Assembly (NCBI GenBank): GCA_024673055.1
Contig: GCA_024673055.1_4537.1
Length of the DNA: 64,000 bases
Source: a phage
Direction: 5' to 3' (one strand)
The notes under the pieces are model-generated. The model was given only the letters and a program-made list of their open reading frames with translations. It ran no database searches and was not told the origin of the DNA. Made by a program: the position numbers and the translations under genes. The first letter of the stretch is position 1, and each line of letters starts with the position of its first letter. This document shows, one piece after another, positions 1,553 through 48,824 of the stretch.

Positions 1553-3331
1553 GTGTCGCACATTATAACTAAATATGGATTTGATGTTGATCTTAGCAAG
1601 GAAGGGCATACAGGTTGTCCGCGCTGCATGAAAAATGGCAAGGATCGCTCTCGTAATAACCTGATGGTTTATGGATTAGATTCTAATGGAGAGCATAAAG
1701 GTGCTAAGTGCTTTGCGTGTGAATACACTATTCCTAGCGTAGAATGGTTACGAGAAAATGGTGAAGTTTTAGAAGAAGAGGAGGAGATTGTGGGTTCGGA
1801 ATTTAATAAACAGATTCATCGTAAAATTGTTCAAGAAACATCAACCAACCCACGTGGTTATCGAGGCATTAAAGAAAAAGTTTCATCTTTCTATGGTGTT
1901 CGTTATGAATACCGTCAGGAAGGGGATCAGATGGTAGTAGAAAGTTGTTTATATCCAACTACTATCGGTAAAGAATTGGTTGGTTTTAAGCGTCGTATTC
2001 ATCCTAAAGATTTCAGTAAACCTATTGGTCAAGTAGGTAAAGATGTAGATCTTTTTGGACAAATTCGTTTTGCAGACCGTTCTCATACTGTGGTAATTAC
2101 AGGTGGTGAACACGATGCTCTGGCAGCTTATCAAATGCTGTCTGAAAACTTGGACAACAAATATGAACTTCCAGCAGTAGTTAGTGGCACAACTGGTGAA
2201 ACCAGTATGTATAAACAAGTTCAGGCACAATATCCTTTTTTTGAAAAATTTAAGAAGATTATTGTTTGCATGGATAATGACAAAGCAGGTAATGAGGCAT
2301 TTGAAAATATTGTTAAGGTGCTGCCTCGTAACAAAGTCTACCGTATGCAGATGGATCTTAAGGATGCCAATCAGTATCTGGAAGAAGGTCGTGCAAAGGA
2401 TTTCGTAAAAGCTTTTTGGAGTGCTCGTCTATACACCCCAGCAGGTGTTTATGCTTCTAATGTCTTGTATGAAGCTGCATTAGAATGCTTGGAATCCAAG
2501 ATGATTACCTTGCCTCCTTTTATGCGTGTTGCTGCAAATATGCTGGGTGGTGGTTTAGTAGAGGAAGAGATTACAGTCATCCTGGCAAAGACCAGTATCG
2601 GTAAAACTTTGATGGTGAACGAGATCACCAAACATATTATTGTTGCGCACCCAGAACATACCCTAGGTATTCTGTCCTTGGAAGCAACTTATAAGAAATA
2701 TTCTCGTAACCTGTTGTCCTCGTTCCTGCATATTCCTCTACACAGGAAAACACCGGAAGAGAAATTTCAAATCTTGGAAGAGAATAAAGAAAAAATCCTA
2801 GATTTTTACGAAAGAGAAGATGGATCACCACGTTTTTATGTATGTGATGATCGTGGAGCAGATGTGGAGTCTATCAAAGAAAAAGTTTTGGAGATGATCA
2901 TCTATTTTGGAGTAACAATTCTTGTTATCGACCCTTATTCTGATTTGCTTTCTGGTATGGATGTTCAAGCCCAGGAAGAGTTAGCAACATGGTTGAAGCG
3001 CATCATGAAAGAGTATGCTATAACTATTATCGTCATCTCACACGTTAAGAAATCGGCTAATGGTGGCAATGAACACTTAACAGAGGACGATGCAATGGGT
3101 AGTAGTTTCTTGGCTAAAGGTGCTGGTATTACCTTGGCTTTGGAACGAGATAAAGCCGCTGAAGACCCTGTAGAACGCAATACGACTCATTGCTTTATCC
3201 TAAAAAACCGTGAGTTTTCGGAAACTGGTCCGGCAGGGCAGTTTTACTATGACATTAGAACTGCAACTCTGCATGACAAAGAGCAGTATTTCAACAATCC
3301 TGCTAATTTGCCTACGGATAGCAACTATTAA
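1553..3331 (+). CDS. DNA primase/helicase (T7 gp4-like)
   Basis: N-terminal Cys4 zinc ribbon (CPRC...CFAC), TOPRIM-like segment (VVITGGEHDALAAY), DnaB-type Walker A (ILAKTSIGKT) and Walker B (LVIDPYSDL). GTG start preceded by CAGGAGA. Confidence 0.85.
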   Translation: MSHIITKYGFDVDLSKEGHTGCPRCMKNGKDRSRNNLMVYGLDSNGEHKGAKCFACEYTIPSVEWLRENGEVLEEEEEIVGSEFNKQIHRKIVQETSTNPRGYRGIKEKVSSFYGVRYEYRQEGDQMVVESCLYPTTIGKELVGFKRRIHPKDFSKPIGQVGKDVDLFGQIRFADRSHTVVITGGEHDALAAYQMLSENLDNKYELPAVVSGTTGETSMYKQVQAQYPFFEKFKKIIVCMDNDKAGNEAFENIVKVLPRNKVYRMQMDLKDANQYLEEGRAKDFVKAFWSARLYTPAGVYASNVLYEAALECLESKMITLPPFMRVAANMLGGGLVEEEITVILAKTSIGKTLMVNEITKHIIVAHPEHTLGILSLEATYKKYSRNLLSSFLHIPLHRKTPEEKFQILEENKEKILDFYEREDGSPRFYVCDDRGADVESIKEKVLEMIIYFGVTILVIDPYSDLLSGMDVQAQEELATWLKRIMKEYAITIIVISHVKKSANGGNEHLTEDDAMGSSFLAKGAGITLALERDKAAEDPVERNTTHCFILKNREFSETGPAGQFYYDIRTATLHDKEQYFNNPANLPTDSNY

Positions 3332-3350
3332 GGGCTTCGGCCCTTTTATT
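3331..3350 (+). terminator. Rho-independent terminator after primase-helicase
   Basis: Hairpin GGGC-TTCG-GCCC followed by TTTTATT immediately after the stop codon. Confidence 0.55.
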
Positions 3351-3361
3351 AAAAATACCTG

Positions 3362-3390
3362 TTGACAACTTTACGGAAGGGACTTATACT
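3362..3390 (+). promoter_or_regulatory. Sigma70-like promoter
   Basis: TTGACA, 17-bp spacer, TATACT; followed by an RBS (AGAGGAG) and ATG at 3423. Confidence 0.55.
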
Positions 3391-3422
3391 TGTCTCATCA
3401 ACCAAACAAGAGGAGAAGTAAA

Positions 3423-3854
3423 ATGCGTATGACAATCGATCTGAATGCAAAAGTTAAAGCTGCTGGTGCTCTGGGTGCTGGTGTTATTAAACACAAACAA
3501 GCGTTGGCATTTGCCATCCCACATATGATTGTTGAGGATCATCCTGAAGAGTTTGCTGTAAAAGTTGTTGAGAATAATGTCTCTGTTATTGAACATCTTC
3601 CAACTGGACGTTCTTACCGTGTTGTTTCTTCTAAAGGTTTCCGTTTCGATGTAAGCCCTTCTTTCACAAAAGGTGCTGGTCGTAGTAAAGTGGGTATTCT
3701 TTCTTACAAATATTATATCGATAAAGTTGCAGATGGTGTTGCCTTCTGTCGTGTAAGTGAAGGTAAAGTAGATATCATCTTTAAAAATACCAAAAACATG
3801 GTTATTTCTGACGATGGTAAAGTTGACCTCACTATTGAGTTCGCTAACAACTAA
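3423..3854 (+). CDS. Hypothetical protein
   Basis: ORF track frame 3390..3854; the ATG at 3423 with an upstream AGAGGAG RBS is preferred because the track start overlaps the -10 box. Confidence 0.5.
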   Translation: MRMTIDLNAKVKAAGALGAGVIKHKQALAFAIPHMIVEDHPEEFAVKVVENNVSVIEHLPTGRSYRVVSSKGFRFDVSPSFTKGAGRSKVGILSYKYYIDKVADGVAFCRVSEGKVDIIFKNTKNMVISDDGKVDLTIEFANN

Positions 3855-3863
3855 GGAGGACTA

Positions 3864-4658
3864 TTGAGCAAGTTGAACACACTTGATCAATATTACACTA
3901 ACCCCGCTTATGCGGGGTTCTTATGTGATAAGATCAAAGAAATTTTTGGAGAGGAAGCTAACTACGTAGAACCATCTGCGGGAGAAGGAGCTTTCTCTTC
4001 TTGTTTTAAAAACATAACTTCTTTTGATATTGACCCTAAGTTTGAAGATTGTATTGAGGCAGATTTTTTAGCTCAATCTGTTGAGTCTGTTGGTAGTGTA
4101 ACTGCTTTTGTCGGTAATCCCCCGTTTGGAAAAAATGCTAGTCTTGCCATTAAGTTCTTTAACCATTGTGCTGAAATGTTGGATAACGAAGGTGGTATTT
4201 GTTTTATCTTGCCTCGCACATTTCAAAAAATCTTTTTTGCACACAAACTAAATCCCCACATGCATCTTCTTTACGAAGAAGAATGTCCAAAAGGATCTTT
4301 TATTCTTCATGGAGAACCTTGGGATGTTCCTTGCGTATTCCAGATATGGATTAAACGCAATGAGAAGCGTTCTCCCGTTGTTTTAGGAGAGAATCGACTG
4401 TTCGTATTAGGTAACAGTAAAGACTACGATATAGCCGTTAGGAGAGCGGGAGCAAGTGCAGGTAAAGTGTTATCAGAAGAAGATTCTTTATCTGAAGCAT
4501 CCACCTATTTTTTAAAAGCCTTGACTTCTGATCTTAAAACGCGTATCATTGAGGCTTACCCGTTACTTAAAGCTGAAGCTAGTAAAACTGCGGGAGTAAG
4601 AAGTTTAAGTTTAAAAGAACTTCAGTGGGTTCTGGAGAACATTAGAAAGGAGGAATAG
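3864..4658 (+). CDS. DNA N6-adenine (or N4-cytosine) methyltransferase
   Basis: SAM-binding motif I (VEPSAGEGAF) followed closely by catalytic motif IV (GNPPFGKN); motif order I then IV suggests gamma-class. TTG start after AGGAGG. Confidence 0.8.
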   Translation: MSKLNTLDQYYTNPAYAGFLCDKIKEIFGEEANYVEPSAGEGAFSSCFKNITSFDIDPKFEDCIEADFLAQSVESVGSVTAFVGNPPFGKNASLAIKFFNHCAEMLDNEGGICFILPRTFQKIFFAHKLNPHMHLLYEEECPKGSFILHGEPWDVPCVFQIWIKRNEKRSPVVLGENRLFVLGNSKDYDIAVRRAGASAGKVLSEEDSLSEASTYFLKALTSDLKTRIIEAYPLLKAEASKTAGVRSLSLKELQWVLENIRKEE

Positions 4659-7600
4659 TGAGTAAGTTTACATGGGATATTGAAGCAAACGGATTGTTGA
4701 ATAATGACACTATTGATTATTTAGCTAGTCCTTATCGTCTCAAAGACACATTTCAAATGCACTGTATTGTCTTAGAGAACCATGAAACAGGAGAAATAGT
4801 AGCTTTCCACGATGGCCCTAAATACATCTTTGATGGGCGTCCTTATGAAGAGTCAGATGGTAAATACACATATGTTCTTAAAGAGTATGTGGCGCAAGAT
4901 TACACACATTTTCAACTAAAAGATTTCCCAGACTTTATTAATCATGAAGGTTATTTTAAAGATAAGCCTGAATATCTGGTTGAAATGGCTGTGGCTCACA
5001 ACGGTATCAACTACGACTGGTTGGCTACAAAACTGTTTTATGGCTTAGATTACAGTGTTAAATATAACACGTGGGGCAAAAATAAGGTAAAACTTATTGA
5101 CTCCTTGATTTTGAGTAAAGTGTTAAACCCAGATCGAAAGATTGAGGGCAAATCAGGACATAGTTTGGCAGCACTTTCTCGAAAGGCAGGTGGTGATGTA
5201 AAAATAGATTTCCGTAAAGAGATTCCAGAAGAAGATCGATTTAAGACTTTTGCTGCGGATATGCTTTATTACTGTATTTATGACAACAAAGCCAATACGA
5301 GCGTATATAATTACCTTATGGAAGAATGGGGCGATTATGATAAATGGGAAGGTCCATTTGAACTTGAACAACGTGTAGCAGACATTATTACACGCCAGGA
5401 ACACCGTGGGTTTGCTTTTAACATGAAGCAAGCAGAAGAGAACCTTGCTTTTTTGGATGCAGAAATGGAGCGTCTTCGTTTACTCGTTGAGCCTATTTTG
5501 CCACCTAAACCAGCAACAAAAGGTTATCTTAAGGCTTTTATTCCACCTAAGTTGCAAATTAAAAAGAACTTAGAGCCAACTAACCATATGATCAATTTTG
5601 CTAAGAAACATGATGGTCATTTGGAAGAGAGGGATGGCGATTGGTGGTTAGTTATGTTGGGGAAAGAGTGGAAACTGCCAGTTGCAGCAGATGAGCCTCT
5701 ATGTGATCCTAACATTCCTGCAACATTGAACGATACAACCCATATTAAAAACTGGCTCGTAGGATTAGGTTGGGTACCGTCTGAATATAAAGATAAAGAC
5801 TTGACGCTTAAATCTGGCACCAAAATTAAAAAGAGCGAGGAAGAACTTCAGAAAGGTATTAGAGCTTACGTTGAGCAAACTCTATCTTCTAATTTTTGTC
5901 AGGATCGTTGTGATCATCTGGAGTGCACACCGGAAACTTTGGAAAGGAAGATTCAAGAGCGTATAGCAAAAGGTAAAGGTCGCGGTCTTAAAGTATTGAC
6001 TAACCCATGTTTTACCAAAGGTCAGGAAAAAGAAATTTGTCCTAACCTGCAAGCTTTGGGTGAGAAATTTCCTTATGCTACACAGATTGTAGAATACTTA
6101 ACGTATAAGCATCGTAGGAACTCTATTTTAGGTGGCGGTGCTGATTGGGAAGAAGATGAAGAAGATCAAGAATACGATAAAGGTTTCTTAGCCGCAGTAA
6201 GGGCGGATGGGCGTATTCCTACACCAGCCGCTACATGTGATGCTGCAACCTCTCGTATGAAACATAGATCTGTAGCTAATATTCCTCGTGTCACATCTTT
6301 GTTTGGATGGGAGATGCGTAACTTGTTTGGTGTAGAGGTTCCTAAATACTTCCAGATTGGCTACGACTTCGACTCTTTGGAAGCAAAAATTGAATCGCAT
6401 TACTGTGTGCCGATGGATGCTCAAGCTTTGACTCGTAAAGGTTGGGTAGGATATCACGACCTGAAGGAAGGGGATGAGATTTTAGGGTACAATGCTGAAA
6501 CAGGTCTGAAAGAATGGACTAAAGTAAAAGGTAAGGTCTTCTATAAAAATAGTAAGACGTTTGAGATTAAAGGGAAATCACACACTTACCGTGCAACAGC
6601 AGATCACCGTTGGTATGTTAATACCCGTAGTAAAGGGAATACTTATGTGCCTAAAGTCAGAACAACTGCCGAGCTTTGCACAGGAGATAACATTATTTGT
6701 AATGCTCCATTTAACATGGAACAAGATCAGGTAAATAGTTTAACTTCTGTTCAACAGGGTAAATGGGATGTTCCGTGGGTAGAACGTGTAGTTAATATGT
6801 CTCATGCCGAGCGTGTAGCTTTCTTGGAAGGTTTCTTGATTGCAGATGGTTACTGGCACGAACATAAACAAAAACCTGTTTGGCGTTGGGCGCAGAACCC
6901 AGGTGAACTTTTTGAAGCAGCTTTAACTGCCTCGTACCTGGTGCATGGAGGCAATATCTCTGTAGCTTTCAATACAAAAGAGCAGAAAGTAAAAGTGGCA
7001 ACATTGACTAACCGCTCTCACATTCCTGTTCAAAGTTTGACTATTGAAGAGTGGGGTGTAGAAGATGTTTGGTGTCCACAAACAGAACTTGGTACGTGGG
7101 TCATGCGTCAGAAAGACTGCATTACCATCACAGGAAACTGTTGGCGGTACGAGCCGGAGCCACACGAATATTGTAACGCTCTGTTGTTAGAGAAACCTAA
7201 TGATGTTCACACAATGATGGCAAAACGTATCACTGAAACTATTGGACGTAAATTTGAACGTAGTCCTGCTAAATCTGTTAAGTATGGTATTACCTATGGT
7301 GCACAAGCCGACAAGGTTGCTAAAACAATTGGTAGCGACAAGTTTACAGGTCAATTGGTGTTCGATGCTTTCTGGGAAGCTGCATTCCCATTGGCGCGTC
7401 TTAAAGAACGTTTAAACGATTTCTGGGTTAAGACTGGTAAACAATATGTTTTGGGTATTGACGGTCGTAAGGTTCCTACTCGTTCTGCTCACGCGATTCT
7501 TAACTCTCTGTTCCAAAGCGGTGGGGTTATCTGTGCTAAACGTGCAATGGTTATTTATGATGACATGATCGAAGAAGAAGGGCTAAGTGTTGACTTCTTT

Positions 7601-7990
7601 AAAGATGACTGGAAGAATAAAGACTTCGTGCAACAAATGATTGCATATCACGATGAAGCCCAGCTTGAAGTTTCTCGTAACCTTGTAGAATTCAAATGGT
7701 TTTCACCGGAATCATTAGGTTGGAAGAAAGTAGACGATCCTGAAGAACAAAAGAAAATTGATAAAGAATGCCTTGCTAAAGTTGAAGAATGGAAGCATAA
7801 TAAGGAAAAAGAGACAGGGCAAATTTGGGCTAACATTCATGAATCTCCCAAAGGTGGATGGTTTACAGCTTATAGTCGGGCAGGTGAACTTGCTGCTTTA
7901 GCTGTTACTAAGGCTGGAGAATTTTACAATCTTAATGTTCAGCTTACTGCTGGATATGACGTGGGGAATTCCTGGGCCAGTTGTCACTGA
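4658..7990 (+). CDS. DNA polymerase, family A with 3'-5' exonuclease domain, interrupted by an intein
   Basis: Exo I (DIEANGL), Exo II (HNGINYDW) and Exo III (YYCIYD) motifs. Pol motif A (DFDSLEAKIESHY) is separated from motif B (KSVKYGITYGA) by a 245 aa insert with intein and LAGLIDADG signatures. Confidence 0.9.
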   Translation: MSKFTWDIEANGLLNNDTIDYLASPYRLKDTFQMHCIVLENHETGEIVAFHDGPKYIFDGRPYEESDGKYTYVLKEYVAQDYTHFQLKDFPDFINHEGYFKDKPEYLVEMAVAHNGINYDWLATKLFYGLDYSVKYNTWGKNKVKLIDSLILSKVLNPDRKIEGKSGHSLAALSRKAGGDVKIDFRKEIPEEDRFKTFAADMLYYCIYDNKANTSVYNYLMEEWGDYDKWEGPFELEQRVADIITRQEHRGFAFNMKQAEENLAFLDAEMERLRLLVEPILPPKPATKGYLKAFIPPKLQIKKNLEPTNHMINFAKKHDGHLEERDGDWWLVMLGKEWKLPVAADEPLCDPNIPATLNDTTHIKNWLVGLGWVPSEYKDKDLTLKSGTKIKKSEEELQKGIRAYVEQTLSSNFCQDRCDHLECTPETLERKIQERIAKGKGRGLKVLTNPCFTKGQEKEICPNLQALGEKFPYATQIVEYLTYKHRRNSILGGGADWEEDEEDQEYDKGFLAAVRADGRIPTPAATCDAATSRMKHRSVANIPRVTSLFGWEMRNLFGVEVPKYFQIGYDFDSLEAKIESHYCVPMDAQALTRKGWVGYHDLKEGDEILGYNAETGLKEWTKVKGKVFYKNSKTFEIKGKSHTYRATADHRWYVNTRSKGNTYVPKVRTTAELCTGDNIICNAPFNMEQDQVNSLTSVQQGKWDVPWVERVVNMSHAERVAFLEGFLIADGYWHEHKQKPVWRWAQNPGELFEAALTASYLVHGGNISVAFNTKEQKVKVATLTNRSHIPVQSLTIEEWGVEDVWCPQTELGTWVMRQKDCITITGNCWRYEPEPHEYCNALLLEKPNDVHTMMAKRITETIGRKFERSPAKSVKYGITYGAQADKVAKTIGSDKFTGQLVFDAFWEAAFPLARLKERLNDFWVKTGKQYVLGIDGRKVPTRSAHAILNSLFQSGGVICAKRAMVIYDDMIEEEGLSVDFFKDDWKNKDFVQQMIAYHDEAQLEVSRNLVEFKWFSPESLGWKKVDDPEEQKKIDKECLAKVEEWKHNKEKETGQIWANIHESPKGGWFTAYSRAGELAALAVTKAGEFYNLNVQLTAGYDVGNSWASCH
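6404..7138 (+). mobile_element. Intein with LAGLIDADG homing-endonuclease-like domain, inserted after Pol motif A
   Basis: Insert begins with Cys (CVPMDAQALTRKGW...GDEILGYN, block A-like), has a TxxH block B (TADHRWYV) and a LAGLIDADG-like motif (FLEGFLIADGYW), and ends ...ITGN with Cys at +1. The flanks rejoin into a contiguous Pol A motif region. Confidence 0.7.
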
Positions 7991-46739: not shown

Positions 46740-48815
46740 TTATCTTTTACGGACACTATACGGTTGGTGAAATCCGCTGTTCATTCTACTGTATCCTGTA
46801 GGAGCATTTGTTGTTGTAGGGATAGCTACTGCTTTGAAAGTATTCTCTTTTGACAGAGTATTAAAACAAGAGGCAGCAGCATCGGGAATGTCATCTTTAA
46901 TAGTGGCTGTAGATCTTTCACCATTGAAAGATTCCAATTCTTTATAAAAGTGGGTTAAAGTTTCCACATTAGGGAAAGAATCTTCAACAATATAAACAAA
47001 ACCGTTTTGACACGCACTACTAAAAGGCATAAAACGCTGAAGCTTTTTCTTGTTACCTGGCATAGCATCTGGTTTAACAACAAAACCTTCTAGAATAAGT
47101 TTCTTTGCAGACTCTGTGTATTCTATTGTCCCAGCACCAGATGGGTCTTTAGGAAGCACTACTGTAACTTCTGGTCCATCAATCTTACATTGATTTAGAA
47201 TCAGGTTATCCCTTTCCCCAGGTAGTCTTCGAAACCTTCCGAAAATTTTACTTTTCTCATCCACAGCATCATAATCATAGTCGCCAAAGATGTAGATATT
47301 ACCATCTTGATCTTTACCCATTTTGACAGATGTTGTATAGTCTGGATAACGGTAAGTTTCTGTAGGAACTGAAACAGCTTTATCCCATGCTCGCATTAGT
47401 TTAAGATTGTTAGGAACATCTTTATAAGATATTTTATGTAACCATTCACGTTGAAAGAAAGATTCTTTCTGGATACGTGCAAACCAACAACCGTCCAGAA
47501 GCTGTGCTCTTTTGATAGCTGTTTGTGATTTAAGCTGTGCTAAGTAATTAGGGTTAAGCCTAATGAGTTCTGGGTTATCAAATATTGTCCCACCAATAAA
47601 TACGAAAGTTTGTGGTTCAATAACAACTGTCTCCCCTGTATTAGGGTTTTCCATGAAACAGTTTTCTGGATATTTTTCTTTCAGTTCTTCAGGTGTGTCA
47701 GCAAAAACAGGTTCATCGTTAACAATGATGAAATATTTTTGTTTACCACACATATCTTCTCTAGGATAACCACCCTCATCAAGATAAGGTAACACCCAAT
47801 TCAAAACCCAACTATCTGCGTCAGGGTTACATGTGCACAACATGAAACTTGTTTCTGACTCTGAACGCATACGTCCCAGAAGATAGAGCATTTCATATTG
47901 TGTGAAGTGGGTTAACTCGTCAAAACCTACCATTGAATACTGTGTACCCTGATGGTTTGTTTCTGCTGTTACGTTATCATTTTCCAAATGGTCAAATTTG
48001 AGGGTTCCACCACCAGTGGCTTCAAAAATGATATCCATTGTACTTTCTTTTACGTGTGGTTGTAAAGGAAGATACAAACGTTTTGCTTCTGTAAACAGAC
48101 CACCTGGTTTACGGTGAGCAGTGGTGTTCTTACGGAAAAGTATTCCACCAAACAAAGGGTCTTTGTAGGCGTATTTTAAAGCTTTCAGCAATAGCAGACG
48201 AGACTTGCCGCTATTCCCAGTAACGAAGCAGTGATCGCCACGTCTAAAGACAATATAGCTGCTTGGAGTCTCAAAACAATATTTCTTATCATCTGTTGAA
48301 ATAACCTCGTGTATTTTTAAGTAAGTGCTCTTTTTACCAGGTATGTTAAAAGGAACACGTTTACCGAATGGATTTTCTACATAACCTTGCAGGGGTTTTC
48401 CTATTTGCTGTAATGCAATAAGATCTCCTACAAGAATCTCGAAATGTTTCTTTGATTTCTTTTTCTTATAGAATACAAAACGGTGTTCCATACTAAGTTC
48501 TTGGAATAATCCTACACCATTTGTTATTCTGTATAGGTTATCTCCATTTAAATCGTATTCTACAAAATAAGGTGTTACCAATTCTAAACGCTTATTCTTA
48601 GGATTGTATTGGTAAATATCCTCTCCCGAATATTCACTAATCTGCCTCCAACCATCTTTTGTAAGATATTCCGTTTCAGCAGAAACACATCCAGCGGCAC
48701 CACCATAAATCATAACTTCTGGCATTAAATCCATTGCAAGAGTCTGTTTACCTGGTTGAGCCTTTACCTCAATATCTACTCCAGCTAAACTACCTGCTGC
48801 CTTTTTCTTTGCCAC
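46740..48815 (-). CDS. Terminase large subunit, interrupted by a mini-intein in the Walker A P-loop
   Basis: P-loop split as ...IYGGAAG [159 aa insert] SGKSRLL...; Walker B-like MVGFDELTHF; GTG start. Confidence 0.85.
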   Translation of the reverse strand: MAKKKAAGSLAGVDIEVKAQPGKQTLAMDLMPEVMIYGGAAGCVSAETEYLTKDGWRQISEYSGEDIYQYNPKNKRLELVTPYFVEYDLNGDNLYRITNGVGLFQELSMEHRFVFYKKKKSKKHFEILVGDLIALQQIGKPLQGYVENPFGKRVPFNIPGKKSTYLKIHEVISTDDKKYCFETPSSYIVFRRGDHCFVTGNSGKSRLLLLKALKYAYKDPLFGGILFRKNTTAHRKPGGLFTEAKRLYLPLQPHVKESTMDIIFEATGGGTLKFDHLENDNVTAETNHQGTQYSMVGFDELTHFTQYEMLYLLGRMRSESETSFMLCTCNPDADSWVLNWVLPYLDEGGYPREDMCGKQKYFIIVNDEPVFADTPEELKEKYPENCFMENPNTGETVVIEPQTFVFIGGTIFDNPELIRLNPNYLAQLKSQTAIKRAQLLDGCWFARIQKESFFQREWLHKISYKDVPNNLKLMRAWDKAVSVPTETYRYPDYTTSVKMGKDQDGNIYIFGDYDYDAVDEKSKIFGRFRRLPGERDNLILNQCKIDGPEVTVVLPKDPSGAGTIEYTESAKKLILEGFVVKPDAMPGNKKKLQRFMPFSSACQNGFVYIVEDSFPNVETLTHFYKELESFNGERSTATIKDDIPDAAASCFNTLSKENTFKAVAIPTTTNAPTGYSRMNSGFHQPYSVRKR
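48213..48689 (-). mobile_element. Mini-intein (159 aa) inserted in terminase P-loop
   Basis: Insert starts with Cys (CVSAETEYLTKDGWRQISEYSGEDIYQYN, block A-like), has an (S/T)xxH block B (SMEHRF), ends ...FVTGN with Ser at +1; excision would restore GGAAGSGKS. Confidence 0.75.
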
Positions 48816-48824
48816 ATTCCCTCC

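What the first reader, a model, noticed from the sequence alone, without database searches (positions are those of the whole stretch)
6404..7138. LAGLIDADG intein inside the DNA polymerase motif A-B region
The Pol A ORF has a 245 aa insert between motif A (DFDSLEAKIESHY) and the downstream conserved region. The insert starts with Cys, has intein block A (CVPMDAQALTRKGW...GDEILGYN), block B (TADHRWYV) and a LAGLIDADG-like motif (FLEGFLIADGYW), and ends ITGN followed by Cys. The penultimate residue is Gly rather than the usual His, which may affect the splicing mechanism or efficiency.
Basis: partly seen in the sequence, partly recalled or inferred. Interest (0 to 1): 0.7.

Follow-up and report, generated by a model that had tools for sequence, protein, structure and literature searches.

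The report
Self-splicing intein inside phage DNA polymerase
The 245-residue insert in this coliphage DNA polymerase is a genuine intein, a protein segment that cuts itself out after translation; the same element is already annotated as an intein in sister phages, and its odd glycine is normal for its large, mostly phage-borne family.

Summary
Window 6404-7138 (+) encodes a 245-aa in-frame insert, Cys583 to Asn827 followed by Cys828, in a 1110-aa family A DNA polymerase of a Phapecoctavirus-like E. coli phage.

Sister phages with about 99% identical flanks lack exactly these 735 bp and join ...ESHY|CWRY.... A high-confidence AlphaFold model (pLDDT 92.7) matches only inteins and related HINT domains in the PDB. 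So the intein reading is supported.

It is not new. GenBank MZ501100 (phage PaulScherrer) and PQ821640 (phage SD2) already label this element an intein-containing polymerase precursor.

- The penultimate Gly is not a defect. It is invariant in a very large family (4,993 cluster representatives at E<=1e-30) whose signature is Cys1, TxxHxW, a block F Cys, and Thr-Gly-Asn. A relative, the mycobacteriophage Bethlehem RDF intein, splices well with Gly and more slowly with His.
- The family therefore carries the Trp-Cys-Thr triplet of class 3 inteins while keeping the class 1 Cys1 and TxxH.
- The endonuclease part is a single LAGLIDADG subdomain, not the usual pair. It is under strong purifying selection and keeps its catalytic acid, which suggests a homodimeric endonuclease. 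That is untested.

A second, unannotated mini-intein appears to sit in the terminase P-loop (48213-48689, minus strand).

The parts
4658..7990 (+). Family A DNA polymerase precursor ORF (1110 aa, GTG start, stop included), with a 3'-5' exonuclease N-terminal part and the polymerase domain interrupted by the intein
   Evidence: ORF list. Pfam DNA_pol_A E 2.1e-11. 98-99% identical to annotated 'DNA polymerase I' genes of Phapecoctavirus phages.
6362..6403 (+). End of the N-extein: polymerase motif A (YDFDSLEAKIESHY, residues 569-582). The intein follows its last residue, Tyr582.
   Evidence: Invariant in all four aligned polymerases. Correspondence to DYSQIELR(I/V)(L/M)AH of bacterial Pol I is from my own knowledge of family A motifs.
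6404..7138 (+). Intein, 245 aa (Cys583-Asn827 of the precursor)
   Evidence: Exactly absent from the ECO340P1 allele. AlphaFold pLDDT 92.7. Foldseek PDB top hits are all inteins. Annotated as an intein in MZ501100.
6404..6445 (+). Block A (CVPMDAQALTRKGW) with the N-terminal nucleophile Cys1
   Evidence: Cys1 present in 112 of 112 complete family members and 178 of 178. Gly13 and Trp14 are invariant.
6578..6619 (+). Block B (SHTYRATADHRWYV): Thr65 (B:7), His68 (B:10), Trp70 (B:12)
   Evidence: T, H and W are invariant in alignment A2. The profile aligns TxxHxW to S62-H65-W67 of the class 3 prototype in Bethlehem gp11.
6776..7006 (+). Single LAGLIDADG subdomain (helix-strand-strand-helix-strand-strand) nested in the splicing domain. 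It aligns with the second of the two subdomains in longer relatives.
   Evidence: DSSP of the model: H139-153, E154-157, E164-169, H173-186, E190-195, E201-206 in model numbering, which is intein numbering +5. Alignment with two-motif relatives.
6821..6856 (+). LAGLIDADG motif FLEGFLIADGYW (intein 140-151). The putative catalytic Asp148 is at 6845-6847.
   Evidence: The acidic residue is D in 17 and E in 8, and the following Gly is present in 25 of 25, short single-motif family members. Pfam LAGLIDADG_3 is only E 0.15 on this sequence.
7064..7111 (+). Block F (DVWCPQTELGTWVMRQ) with Cys224 at position F:4 (7073-7075), 21 residues before the terminal Asn
   Evidence: Cys present in 119 of 119 and 176 of 177. 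The Cys-to-Asn spacing is the same as C320/N341 of the class 3 prototype.
7118..7141 (+). Block G (CITITGN) plus the first C-extein residue: Thr243 (G:5), Gly244 (G:6), Asn245 (G:7), Cys+1 (7139-7141)
   Evidence: T, G and N each invariant in aligned members. The first intein codon and the +1 codon are both TGT.
7139..7987 (+). C-extein (283 aa), including motif B RSPAKSVKYGITYG at 7259-7300
   Evidence: Alignment with the intein-less allele. Pfam and NCBIfam Pol I matches cover residues 845-1009.

Best explanation
The segment is a functional intein of the canonical class 1 type. It lies in the only family A DNA polymerase gene found in this window of a Phapecoctavirus-like phage.

Proposed splicing route, inferred from the conserved residues and from established intein chemistry. 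The gene is translated as a 1110-aa precursor that is presumably inactive, because the insert follows motif A directly. The intein folds into a HINT splicing domain. Cys1, helped by block B Thr65 and His68, converts the Tyr582-Cys583 peptide bond to a thioester. The N-extein is passed to Cys+1 (Cys828). Asn245 cyclises and releases the intein. An S-to-N shift then yields the 865-aa polymerase with the junction ...IESHY-CWRYE....

The penultimate Gly, the block F Cys224, Trp70 and Thr243 are invariant traits of a large, mainly phage-borne intein family. Within that family they probably replace the roles of the usual penultimate His and block F Asp in coordinating the steps.

The nested domain is one LAGLIDADG subdomain. 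I think it most likely still works as a homing endonuclease by pairing two intein copies into a homodimer, cutting intein-less polymerase alleles during co-infection (about 50% likely). This would explain the presence/absence pattern among near-identical phages.

Shown here: the insert, its boundaries, its fold, its family and the selection acting on it. Inferred: that it splices, by which route, and that it has endonuclease activity.
For: - Exact presence/absence. An 865-aa intein-less allele has exteins 100% identical to the window's, and 34 of 128 records span the insert.
- Junction residues Cys1, TxxH, Asn and Cys+1 are all present.
- Sequence and fold. The family profile hits solved inteins: Spl DnaX 1.6e-5 and AceL NrdHF 3.7e-4. 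The AlphaFold model has pLDDT 92.7 and pTM 0.90. The Foldseek PDB top 50 are all inteins or HINT domains, the best being the TliVMA intein at E 6.8e-9 and TMq 0.71. An independent BFVD model of the full ZCKP1 polymerase superposes at TMq 0.97.
- Catalytic residues are invariant across the family.
- Purifying selection. dN/dS against phage PaulScherrer is 0.024 over the whole intein and 0.042 over the LAGLIDADG part. At least 35 phage records carry the intein, so the polymerase must mature.
- A relative, the Bethlehem RDF intein (74.6 bits to the family profile, same Cys...TGN ending), was shown experimentally to splice completely with Gly and more slowly with G316H, and its endonuclease was toxic in E. 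coli (PMC5050341).
- For an active endonuclease. The acidic residue plus Gly of the motif is kept in 25 of 25 single-motif relatives. The closest single-motif relatives sit at different sites in polymerase motif B, which implies spread after the first subdomain was lost.
Against: - No experiment on this intein exists in the literature I could search.
- Pfam and NCBIfam intein models barely see it: Intein_splicing E 0.007, below the curated cut-off, and no NCBIfam hit.
- The Trp-Cys-Thr triplet is the published signature of class 3 inteins, which start splicing from the block F Cys. The class 1 route is therefore an inference from the invariant Cys1 and TxxH.
- Against an active endonuclease. 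Intein endonucleases described so far have two LAGLIDADG subdomains (my knowledge; one search found no counter-example). The target site shows no pseudo-palindrome above background. Low dN/dS could merely reflect the need for the insert to fold so that an essential enzyme can splice.
- The first ~105 nt of the intein are as diverged from PaulScherrer as the exteins. The intein may therefore be old in both lineages rather than recently homed.
Confidence: 0.85

Rival explanations
1. The intein splices by a class 3 or hybrid route. The block F Cys224, not Cys1, makes the first attack on the N-terminal junction and forms a branched thioester that is then passed to Cys+1. Cys1 would be dispensable, or would serve as a relay or as a redox partner of Cys224.
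For: [quoted passage not shown]
- The register was checked against the prototype class 3 intein of phage Bethlehem gp11: S62-H65-W67, and C320 lying 21 residues before N341.
- Tori et al. 2010 noted three WCT inteins with Ser1 or Cys1 whose mechanism was then untested (PMC2807308).
- The class 3 split intein AceL NrdHF is among the best sequence and fold matches.
Against: - Cys1 is kept in every complete family member, 112 of 112 and 178 of 178. Block B keeps Thr at B:7, which class 3 inteins generally lack.
- Cys is also the second most common residue at F:4 across inteins in general (PMC4031507).
- The family profile scores the class 1 RDF intein at 74.6 bits over its full length, but the class 3 prototype at only 18.7 bits over the N-terminal part.
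- Grafting WCT onto a class 1 intein did not create class 3 splicing (PMC7664689).
Confidence: 0.15
2. The intein splices, but its LAGLIDADG subdomain is a dead remnant. The element no longer homes. It is inherited vertically and moved only by ordinary phage recombination, and it is on its way to becoming a mini-intein or being lost.
For: - Only one of the two subdomains is left; about 80 residues, including the first motif, are missing relative to relatives.
- The target is not pseudo-palindromic, and no partner subdomain is encoded in the window.
- The mosaic divergence pattern suggests long residence plus internal recombination.
- The terminase mini-intein in the same genome shows that fixed, endonuclease-free inteins persist in this lineage.
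Against: - The subdomain is under purifying selection as strong as the splicing domain: dN/dS 0.042 against 0.024. It stays nearly unchanged in phage KP13-16, where synonymous sites are saturated.
- The catalytic acid and Gly are kept in 25 of 25 single-motif relatives that share only 25-50% identity with the window intein.
- These relatives occupy several different host proteins and sites.
- Overall, intein DNA is 92% identical between two phage genera whose flanking polymerase DNA is 72-79% identical.
Confidence: 0.35
3. The segment is an integral polymerase domain, or a group I intron with its own reading frame, rather than an intein.
For: - Most GenBank records simply call the whole 1110-aa ORF 'DNA polymerase I'.
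- The related Pseudomonas phage KIL1 polymerase is annotated as a two-piece join, as if it were spliced at the RNA level.
Against: - Near-identical polymerases function without the segment.
- The segment is in frame with no stop codon.
- It folds as HINT plus a LAGLIDADG subdomain.
- It carries every splice-junction residue needed for protein splicing.
- I did not run an RNA-family search for a group I intron, so that possibility is rejected on the protein evidence only.
Confidence: 0.02

Closest known systems
The same intein in sister phages: Escherichia phage PaulScherrer (MZ501100, 'intein-containing DNA polymerase precursor') and SD2 (PQ821640)
   Same: Same insertion point and same length. 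97.6% amino-acid identity to each and 92% nucleotide identity to PaulScherrer. Annotated as an intein on comparative-genomic grounds (PMC8594841).
   Different: The PaulScherrer mat_peptide is shifted by one codon (VPMD...TGNC) because both boundary codons are TGT. Neither record comes with any characterisation.
Mycobacteriophage Bethlehem RDF (metallophosphoesterase) intein, studied by Kelley et al. 2016 (PMC5050341)
   Same: Same family: 74.6 bits to the family profile over the full length. It has Cys1, TxxH, block F ...VWC..., and ends Thr-Gly-Asn. The penultimate Gly is native. It splices completely, and G316H slows it. It is phage-borne and lies in a DNA-metabolism protein.
   Different: It has 317 aa, two LAGLIDADG motifs and an endonuclease that was toxic in E. 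coli. It has Val rather than Trp at B:12, Ser rather than Cys at +1, and a different host protein.
Class 3 inteins (mycobacteriophage Bethlehem 'DnaB'/gp11 prototype; M. smegmatis DnaBi1, PDB 6BS8; AceL NrdHF, PDB 6ZGQ)
   Same: The Trp(B:12)-Cys(F:4)-Thr(G:5) triplet is in the same register, with the Cys 21 residues before the terminal Asn. Phage association and the HINT fold are shared.
   Different: Class 3 inteins lack an N-terminal nucleophile and usually lack Thr at B:7. The examples read here (MP-Be DnaB, Msm DnaBi1) keep a penultimate His. This intein has Cys1, Thr B:7 and Gly G:6. Sequence similarity to the prototype is weak at 18.7 bits.
Endonuclease-bearing inteins with solved structures (TliVMA 7QSU, PI-SceI 1VDE/1LWS, PI-PfuI 1DQ3)
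   Same: Best fold matches: a HINT domain with a LAGLIDADG domain nested between blocks B and F.
   Different: Those carry two LAGLIDADG subdomains in one chain, often with an extra DNA-recognition region, and are 360-540 aa long. This one has a single subdomain and 245 aa.
Homodimeric single-motif LAGLIDADG endonucleases (I-CreI, I-MsoI type)
   Same: One LAGLIDADG motif per chain with a conserved acidic residue, and a helix-strand-strand-helix-strand-strand core. That these enzymes act as homodimers is from my own knowledge and PMC3943268.
   Different: Those are free-standing, intron-encoded proteins with pseudo-palindromic targets. Here the subdomain is embedded in an intein and the target shows no clear symmetry.
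The intein in polymerase motif B of phage nepoznato and relatives, and of Pseudomonas phage KIL1
   Same: Same family (32% and 28% identity), same gene, and the same Cys1...TGN|Cys ends.
   Different: It is inserted about 50 extein residues downstream (KYG|C-TYG). It is 324-331 aa long with two LAGLIDADG motifs. No listed record showed both inteins.

Membership tests
Intein (HINT protein-splicing domain) | In-frame insertion in a conserved host protein that is absent from orthologous alleles | tested here: met
   The ECO340P1 polymerase lacks exactly residues 583-827, and its exteins are 100% identical to the window's.
Intein (HINT protein-splicing domain) | Splice-junction residues: Cys/Ser at position 1, TxxH in block B, C-terminal Asn, and Cys/Ser/Thr at +1 | tested here: met
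   Cys1, Thr65-x-x-His68, Asn245 and Cys+1 are present and invariant in the family.
Intein (HINT protein-splicing domain) | Penultimate His (usual but not obligatory) | tested here: not met
   Gly244. Gly is present in 119 of 119 and 171 of 174 family members. Inteins without this His are known to splice (PMC5050341; PMC4031507).
Intein (HINT protein-splicing domain) | HINT fold | tested here: met
   AlphaFold pLDDT 92.7. 42 PDB matches at E<=0.001, and every one of the 50 best listed is an intein or HINT domain.
Intein (HINT protein-splicing domain) | Curated sequence-model match | tested here: inconclusive
   Pfam Intein_splicing gives 16.6 bits against a cut-off of 35.8, and NCBIfam gives no hit. 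Only 2 of 75 family members match Intein_splicing at E<=0.01. A family profile does reach solved inteins at 1.6e-5.
Intein (HINT protein-splicing domain) | Demonstrated protein splicing | not testable with these tools
   Indirect only: viable phage isolates, strong purifying selection, and a splicing-proficient relative (PMC5050341).
Class 1 (canonical) inteins | An N-terminal Cys/Ser that forms the linear (thio)ester, with block B Thr and His | tested here: met
   The residues are present and invariant. Their use in catalysis is inferred, not shown.
Class 3 inteins | Absence of an N-terminal Cys/Ser/Thr nucleophile | tested here: not met
   Cys1 is invariant, 112 of 112 and 178 of 178. Definitions are from PMC2807308 and PMC7891396.
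Class 3 inteins | Trp(B:12)-Cys(F:4)-Thr(G:5) triplet | tested here: met
   Trp70, Cys224 and Thr243. The register was verified against the Bethlehem gp11 prototype.
Class 3 inteins | Obligate block F Cys nucleophile and block F branched intermediate | not testable with these tools
   This needs mutagenesis and mass spectrometry.
Class 3 inteins | Membership of the monophyletic class 3 clade | tested here: inconclusive
   The family profile scores the prototype at only 18.7 bits against 74.6 bits for the class 1 RDF intein. No proper phylogeny including class 3 sequences was built.
LAGLIDADG homing endonuclease | LAGLIDADG motif ending in a conserved acidic residue followed by Gly | tested here: met
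   FLEGFLIADG. The acidic residue (D or E) and Gly are invariant in 25 single-motif relatives.
LAGLIDADG homing endonuclease | Two LAGLIDADG subdomains forming one active centre, either in one chain or as a homodimer | tested here: inconclusive
   There is only one subdomain in the chain. Dimerisation could not be modelled. No partner subdomain was found in the window.
LAGLIDADG homing endonuclease | Site-specific cleavage of the empty allele, and homing | not testable with these tools
   Indirect only: presence/absence polymorphism and an intein more conserved than its flanks between genera.

The most novel reading that the evidence does not exclude
Two non-standard properties of this tractable coliphage intein remain possible. 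(a) Its invariant block F Cys224 takes a direct part in splicing, as a class 3-like branch point or as a relay or redox partner of Cys1. That would make this large 'Cys1 + WCT + Gly' family a living intermediate between class 1 and class 3 inteins. (b) Its single LAGLIDADG subdomain acts as a homodimeric homing endonuclease, so that two excised inteins must pair to cut DNA. I found no description of such an arrangement for inteins.
Probability: 0.3. Interest if true: 0.6.

Novelty: already known. Interest (0 to 1): 0.33.

Why it matters
As a bare finding it is ordinary. Inteins in phage replication genes are common, and this one is already labelled in two GenBank records.

Its practical value is for annotation. 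Every other listed record with this insert (about 30 of 35) calls the 1110-aa ORF a plain polymerase or a hypothetical protein, and the curated intein models miss the family. Polymerase phylogenies, structure predictions and length-based comparisons for these widely used therapeutic-candidate phages are distorted unless the 735 bp are removed.

The scientific value lies in the family traits. The family is very large and mostly unannotated, and it combines the class 1 nucleophile with the class 3 triplet and an invariant penultimate Gly. An E. coli phage member with natural intein-less alleles is a convenient system for two questions: what the block F Cys does, and how class 3 inteins arose.

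It would also allow a test of whether a half-size LAGLIDADG domain inside an intein can still drive homing.

Tried and rejected
- Pfam and NCBIfam scans of the insert gave only sub-threshold hits. I therefore relied on alleles, a family profile and structure.
- A single-sequence phmmer search against the PDB was not significant, best E 0.074. A 10-sequence profile was significant.
- I looked for a pseudo-palindromic target, as expected for a homodimeric endonuclease. The best score was 5 of 9 symmetric pairs among 31 centres, no better than background.
- I looked for a second LAGLIDADG subdomain elsewhere in the 64-kb window that could act in trans. None was found, but the rest of the roughly 150-kb genome was not available.
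- I first read the higher intein-than-extein identity to PaulScherrer as recent homing. Fine mapping showed that the first ~105 nt of the intein are as diverged as the exteins, so the simple recent-invasion story was dropped in favour of a mosaic history.
- I tried to read Tori and Perler 2011 (PMC3133030), which tested WCT inteins further. It is not held, and the supplement of Tori 2010 is not held either. What is known about WCT inteins with Cys1 therefore remains unchecked.
- Literature searches for this intein (phi92, Phapecoctavirus, rV5) found only the BASEL annotation remark.
- A neighbour-joining tree on splicing-domain columns has no support values. I use it only to say which relatives are closest.
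- No residue-level distances could be taken from the model, because coordinates are not exposed. The proximity of Cys224 to the scissile bond was therefore not measured.
- No Rfam search for a group I intron was run.
Full report
**What is in the sequence**

Window 6404-7138 (+) translates into 245 codons with no stop, CVPMDAQALTRKGW...ITITGN. It lies inside a 1110-aa ORF at 4658-7990.

The ORF is a family A DNA polymerase (Pfam DNA_pol_A E 2.1e-11). The DNA is 97-99% identical to the polymerase genes of Phapecoctavirus coliphages such as EF1-1, anhysbys and ESCO5. The window therefore comes from a Stephanstirmvirinae myovirus.

**Is it an insert?**

Yes, and the boundaries are exact.
- In the megablast search, 34 of 128 related records cover the whole gene. 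Other listed records cover 78% of it in two pieces, which is the gene minus 735 bp.
- Phage ECO340P1 encodes an 865-aa polymerase whose exteins are 100% identical to the window's. It reads ...EAKIESHY|CWRYEPEP... across the junction.
- The insert is therefore Cys583-Asn827, and the next residue is Cys828.
- The first intein codon and the +1 codon are both TGT. Comparison of alleles alone cannot place the boundary within that codon; intein chemistry (Cys first, Asn last) does.
- The insert follows the last residue of motif A (YDFDSLEAKIESHY, residues 569-582). Motif B (RSPAKSVKYGITYG) lies 41 extein residues downstream, at precursor residues 868-881. The motif names come from my knowledge of family A polymerases.

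**Is it an intein?**

- Curated models are nearly blind to it. Pfam Intein_splicing gives 16.6 bits against a cut-off of 35.8, LAGLIDADG_3 gives E 0.15, and NCBIfam gives nothing.
- A profile of ten relatives reaches solved inteins: Spl DnaX mini-intein at 1.6e-5 and AceL NrdHF at 3.7e-4.
- An AlphaFold model built on 75 family sequences is confident, with pLDDT 92.7 and pTM 0.90.
- All 50 best Foldseek matches in the PDB are inteins or HINT domains. They are led by endonuclease-bearing inteins: TliVMA at E 6.8e-9 and TMq 0.71, then PI-SceI, PhoVMA and PI-PfuI.
- In the viral structure library the best match is an independent model of the identical ZCKP1 polymerase (TMq 0.97). It is followed by intein-bearing portal, terminase, polymerase and ribonucleotide reductase proteins.
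- GenBank MZ501100 (phage PaulScherrer, BASEL collection) annotates this very element, 97.6% identical, as 'intein-containing DNA polymerase precursor' with an intein mat_peptide. PQ821640 (SD2) carries the same product name. The BASEL paper says inteins were located by comparative genomics and gives no further analysis (PMC8594841).
- So the basic interpretation is right and is already on record.

**The penultimate glycine and the family it belongs to**

- The relatives come from phage genomes and from protein searches of genomes and metagenomes. They include inteins in Pseudomonas phage KIL1 polymerase and in Gordonia phage terminase, portal and tape-measure proteins.
- Across sequences only 24-36% identical, a 10-sequence alignment has these invariant columns: Cys1, Leu9, Gly13, Trp14, Gly23, Asp24, Thr65, His68, Trp70, Cys224, Thr227, Thr243 and Asn245. 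Gly244 is nearly invariant.
- In 122 proteins aligned to that profile, excluding gaps, the counts were: Cys1 112/112, Thr65 121/121, His68 121/121, Trp70 119/121, Cys224 119/119, Thr243 119/119, Gly244 119/119 and Asn245 112/112. The +1 residue was Ser in 54, Thr in 39 and Cys in 21.
- An exhaustive HMMER search of 1.84 billion cluster representatives found 4,993 proteins at E<=1e-30 and 15,666 at E<=1e-10.
- In the 133 best new proteins from that search plus the window intein there are 180 intein units. Of these, 150 carry the whole C-T-H-W-C-T-G-N signature, and 43 proteins hold more than one unit.
- The Gly is thus a fixed trait of a very large family, not a lesion in this copy.
- The metallophosphoesterase (RDF) intein of mycobacteriophage Bethlehem belongs to the family or sits next to it. 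It scores 74.6 bits over the full profile and reads C1...TANHRV...EVWCLRV...HLTGN|S. Kelley et al. showed that it splices to completion, that replacing its penultimate Gly by His causes precursor to accumulate, and that its endonuclease is toxic in E. coli (PMC5050341). This is the best experimental proxy for the window's intein.

**The class 3 triplet**

- Trp two residues after the block B His, Cys at block F position 4, and Thr just before the penultimate residue together form the 'WCT' triplet that defines class 3 inteins. In those inteins the block F Cys, not residue 1, makes the first attack (PMC2807308; PMC7891396; PMC6195587).
- I checked the register against the prototype, Bethlehem gp11. 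The family profile aligns its S62-H65-W67 with the window's T65-H68-W70. Its Cys320 lies 21 residues before Asn341, exactly as Cys224 lies before Asn245.
- The window's family nevertheless keeps Cys1 and the block B Thr without exception, and class 3 inteins lack both. It resembles the class 1 RDF intein far more (74.6 bits) than the class 3 prototype (18.7 bits, N-terminal part only).
- By the published sequence definitions it is therefore not a class 3 intein.
- Tori et al. noted in 2010 that 3 of 37 WCT inteins had Ser1 or Cys1 and left their mechanism open. Their 2011 follow-up is not in the library. A later paper states that WCT occurs only in class 3 inteins (PMC7664689); this family shows otherwise.
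- I take the class 1 route as most likely because Cys1 and Thr B:7 are invariant. I give about 15% to a class 3-like or hybrid role for Cys224.

**The endonuclease part**

- The model shows one helix-strand-strand-helix-strand-strand unit between blocks B and F, at model residues 139-206.
- Relatives of 312-364 aa have two LAGLIDADG motifs. The window's single motif aligns with their second one, and about 80 residues including the first motif are missing.
- This short form is not a one-off. Twenty-five family members of 236-278 aa share it, and all 25 keep the acidic residue (Asp in 17, Glu in 8) and the following Gly of the motif.
- On splicing-domain columns the window's closest relatives are 248-255-aa single-motif inteins (40-50% identity). 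They sit at two neighbouring positions within polymerase motif B of uncultured phages. Their sister group has two motifs.
- Selection on the subdomain is as strong as on the splicing domain. dN/dS against PaulScherrer is 0.042 for residues 105-205 and 0.024 for residues 1-104. In Klebsiella phage KP13-16 synonymous sites are saturated, yet the core of the subdomain is almost unchanged.
- Taken together, this favours a working domain. The simplest way for one LAGLIDADG subdomain to cut DNA is as a homodimer, as the I-CreI-type enzymes do (my knowledge; PMC3943268).
- Against this: the empty site is not detectably symmetric, no partner subdomain is encoded in the window, and selection might only reflect the need to fold.
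- My library search for single-motif endonucleases in inteins returned no paper describing one. That is weak evidence of absence.

**Population picture**

- Thirty-five phage records carry this intein at 90% amino-acid identity or more. They span Phapecoctavirus, Justusliebigvirus (phi92, PaulScherrer) and one Klebsiella phage.
- About a dozen related phages (nepoznato, ukendt, nieznany, phiWec187 and others) instead carry a 324-aa two-motif relative, 32% identical, inside motif B. There a Cys replaces the Ile of intein-less alleles as the +1 residue. The same phages have Thr where the window has Cys828. No listed record showed both inteins.
- Between the window and PaulScherrer the intein DNA is 92.1% identical, while the flanking polymerase DNA is 71.7% and 79.4% identical.
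- The pattern is mosaic, however. The first ~105 nt of the intein differ at about 21% of positions, like the exteins, and the stretch 6509-7123 differs at about 5%.
- This fits an intein that is old in both lineages and has since exchanged its central part. It does not fit one clean recent invasion.

**Mechanism, stated plainly**

- Shown: a precisely bounded, in-frame, HINT-fold insert with all junction residues. It is polymorphic among near-identical phages and under purifying selection.
- Inferred from established intein chemistry and from the Bethlehem relative: the precursor splices through the Cys1 thioester, transfer to Cys828, and Asn245 cyclisation, giving the 865-aa enzyme with junction peptide IESHYCWR. 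Gly244, Cys224, Thr243 and Trp70 form a family-specific solution for coordinating these steps.
- More speculative: two excised inteins pair to cut the empty allele.

**Verdict**

The element itself is already annotated in public records, so novelty is low. The family-level traits (Cys1 plus WCT plus an invariant Gly, and a half-size LAGLIDADG domain) are the only parts likely to interest a specialist, and they need bench work. Interest is 0.33.

Noticed in passing
window 48213-48689 (-), inside ORF 46743-48824 (-): The large terminase carries a 159-aa insert that splits its Walker A loop (GGAAG|CVSAETEYLTKDGW...SMEHRF...KKYCFETP...CFVTGN|SGKS). The insert has Cys1, a block B His, a Cys 21 residues before a Thr-Gly-Asn end, and Ser+1, so it looks like a mini-intein without an endonuclease. 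The family profile hits both of its ends, hhalign gives E 1.7e-5, and Pfam Terminase_6N starts right after it. tblastn finds it across related phages (136 of 147 matching records at 80% coverage or more). None of the listed records annotates it as an intein, including PaulScherrer.
   Followed up: partly
L001 (MZ501100) 2504-3238, versus window 6404-7138: The GenBank mat_peptide 'intein' of phage PaulScherrer is shifted by one codon, beginning Val and ending Cys. This arises because the first intein codon and the +1 codon are both TGT, so allele comparison alone cannot fix the boundary.
   Followed up: yes
L003 (phage nepoznato MN850571) 2501-3472; corresponds to window ~7288: Related phages carry a different 324-aa, two-motif intein of the same family inside polymerase motif B (KYG|C...TLTGN|C-TYGAQ). 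Its +1 Cys replaces the Ile of intein-less alleles, so the spliced enzyme has a changed motif B residue. These phages also have Thr instead of Cys828, plus nearby substitutions, at the window's insertion site. That may make the site refractory to the window-type intein.
   Followed up: partly
window 6404-6508 versus 6509-7123: Compared with phage PaulScherrer, the first ~105 nt of the intein are as diverged as the exteins (about 21%, mostly at third codon positions), while the rest differs by about 5%. This points to a recombination breakpoint inside the intein.
   Followed up: partly
L004 (Pseudomonas phage KIL1 NC_030934), polymerase CDS: The KIL1 polymerase CDS is annotated as a two-piece join around its 331-aa intein, as if the insert were removed at the RNA level. 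The insert is in frame and has the family's Cys1...TGN|Cys ends.
   Followed up: no
L008 (Vibrio phage helene NC_021067), NrdA: A more distant relative in ribonucleotide reductase ends ...ILTGQ|C, with a terminal Gln instead of Asn, and has Phe instead of Trp at B:12.
   Followed up: no
window 6380-6406, versus P0016 and P0017: The window's insertion site (EAKIESHY|C) resembles the motif B sites used by its closest relatives (TAKTFIYAY|C and KSKNGFY|C). This hints that the intein may have reached the motif A site by ectopic homing from motif B. It was not tested at the DNA level.
   Followed up: no
family-wide (alignment A3): Pfam recognises only 2 of 75 family members as Intein_splicing, 3 as Hint and 5 as LAGLIDADG_3 at E<=0.01. 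A family with thousands of cluster representatives is therefore largely invisible to routine domain annotation.
   Followed up: partly
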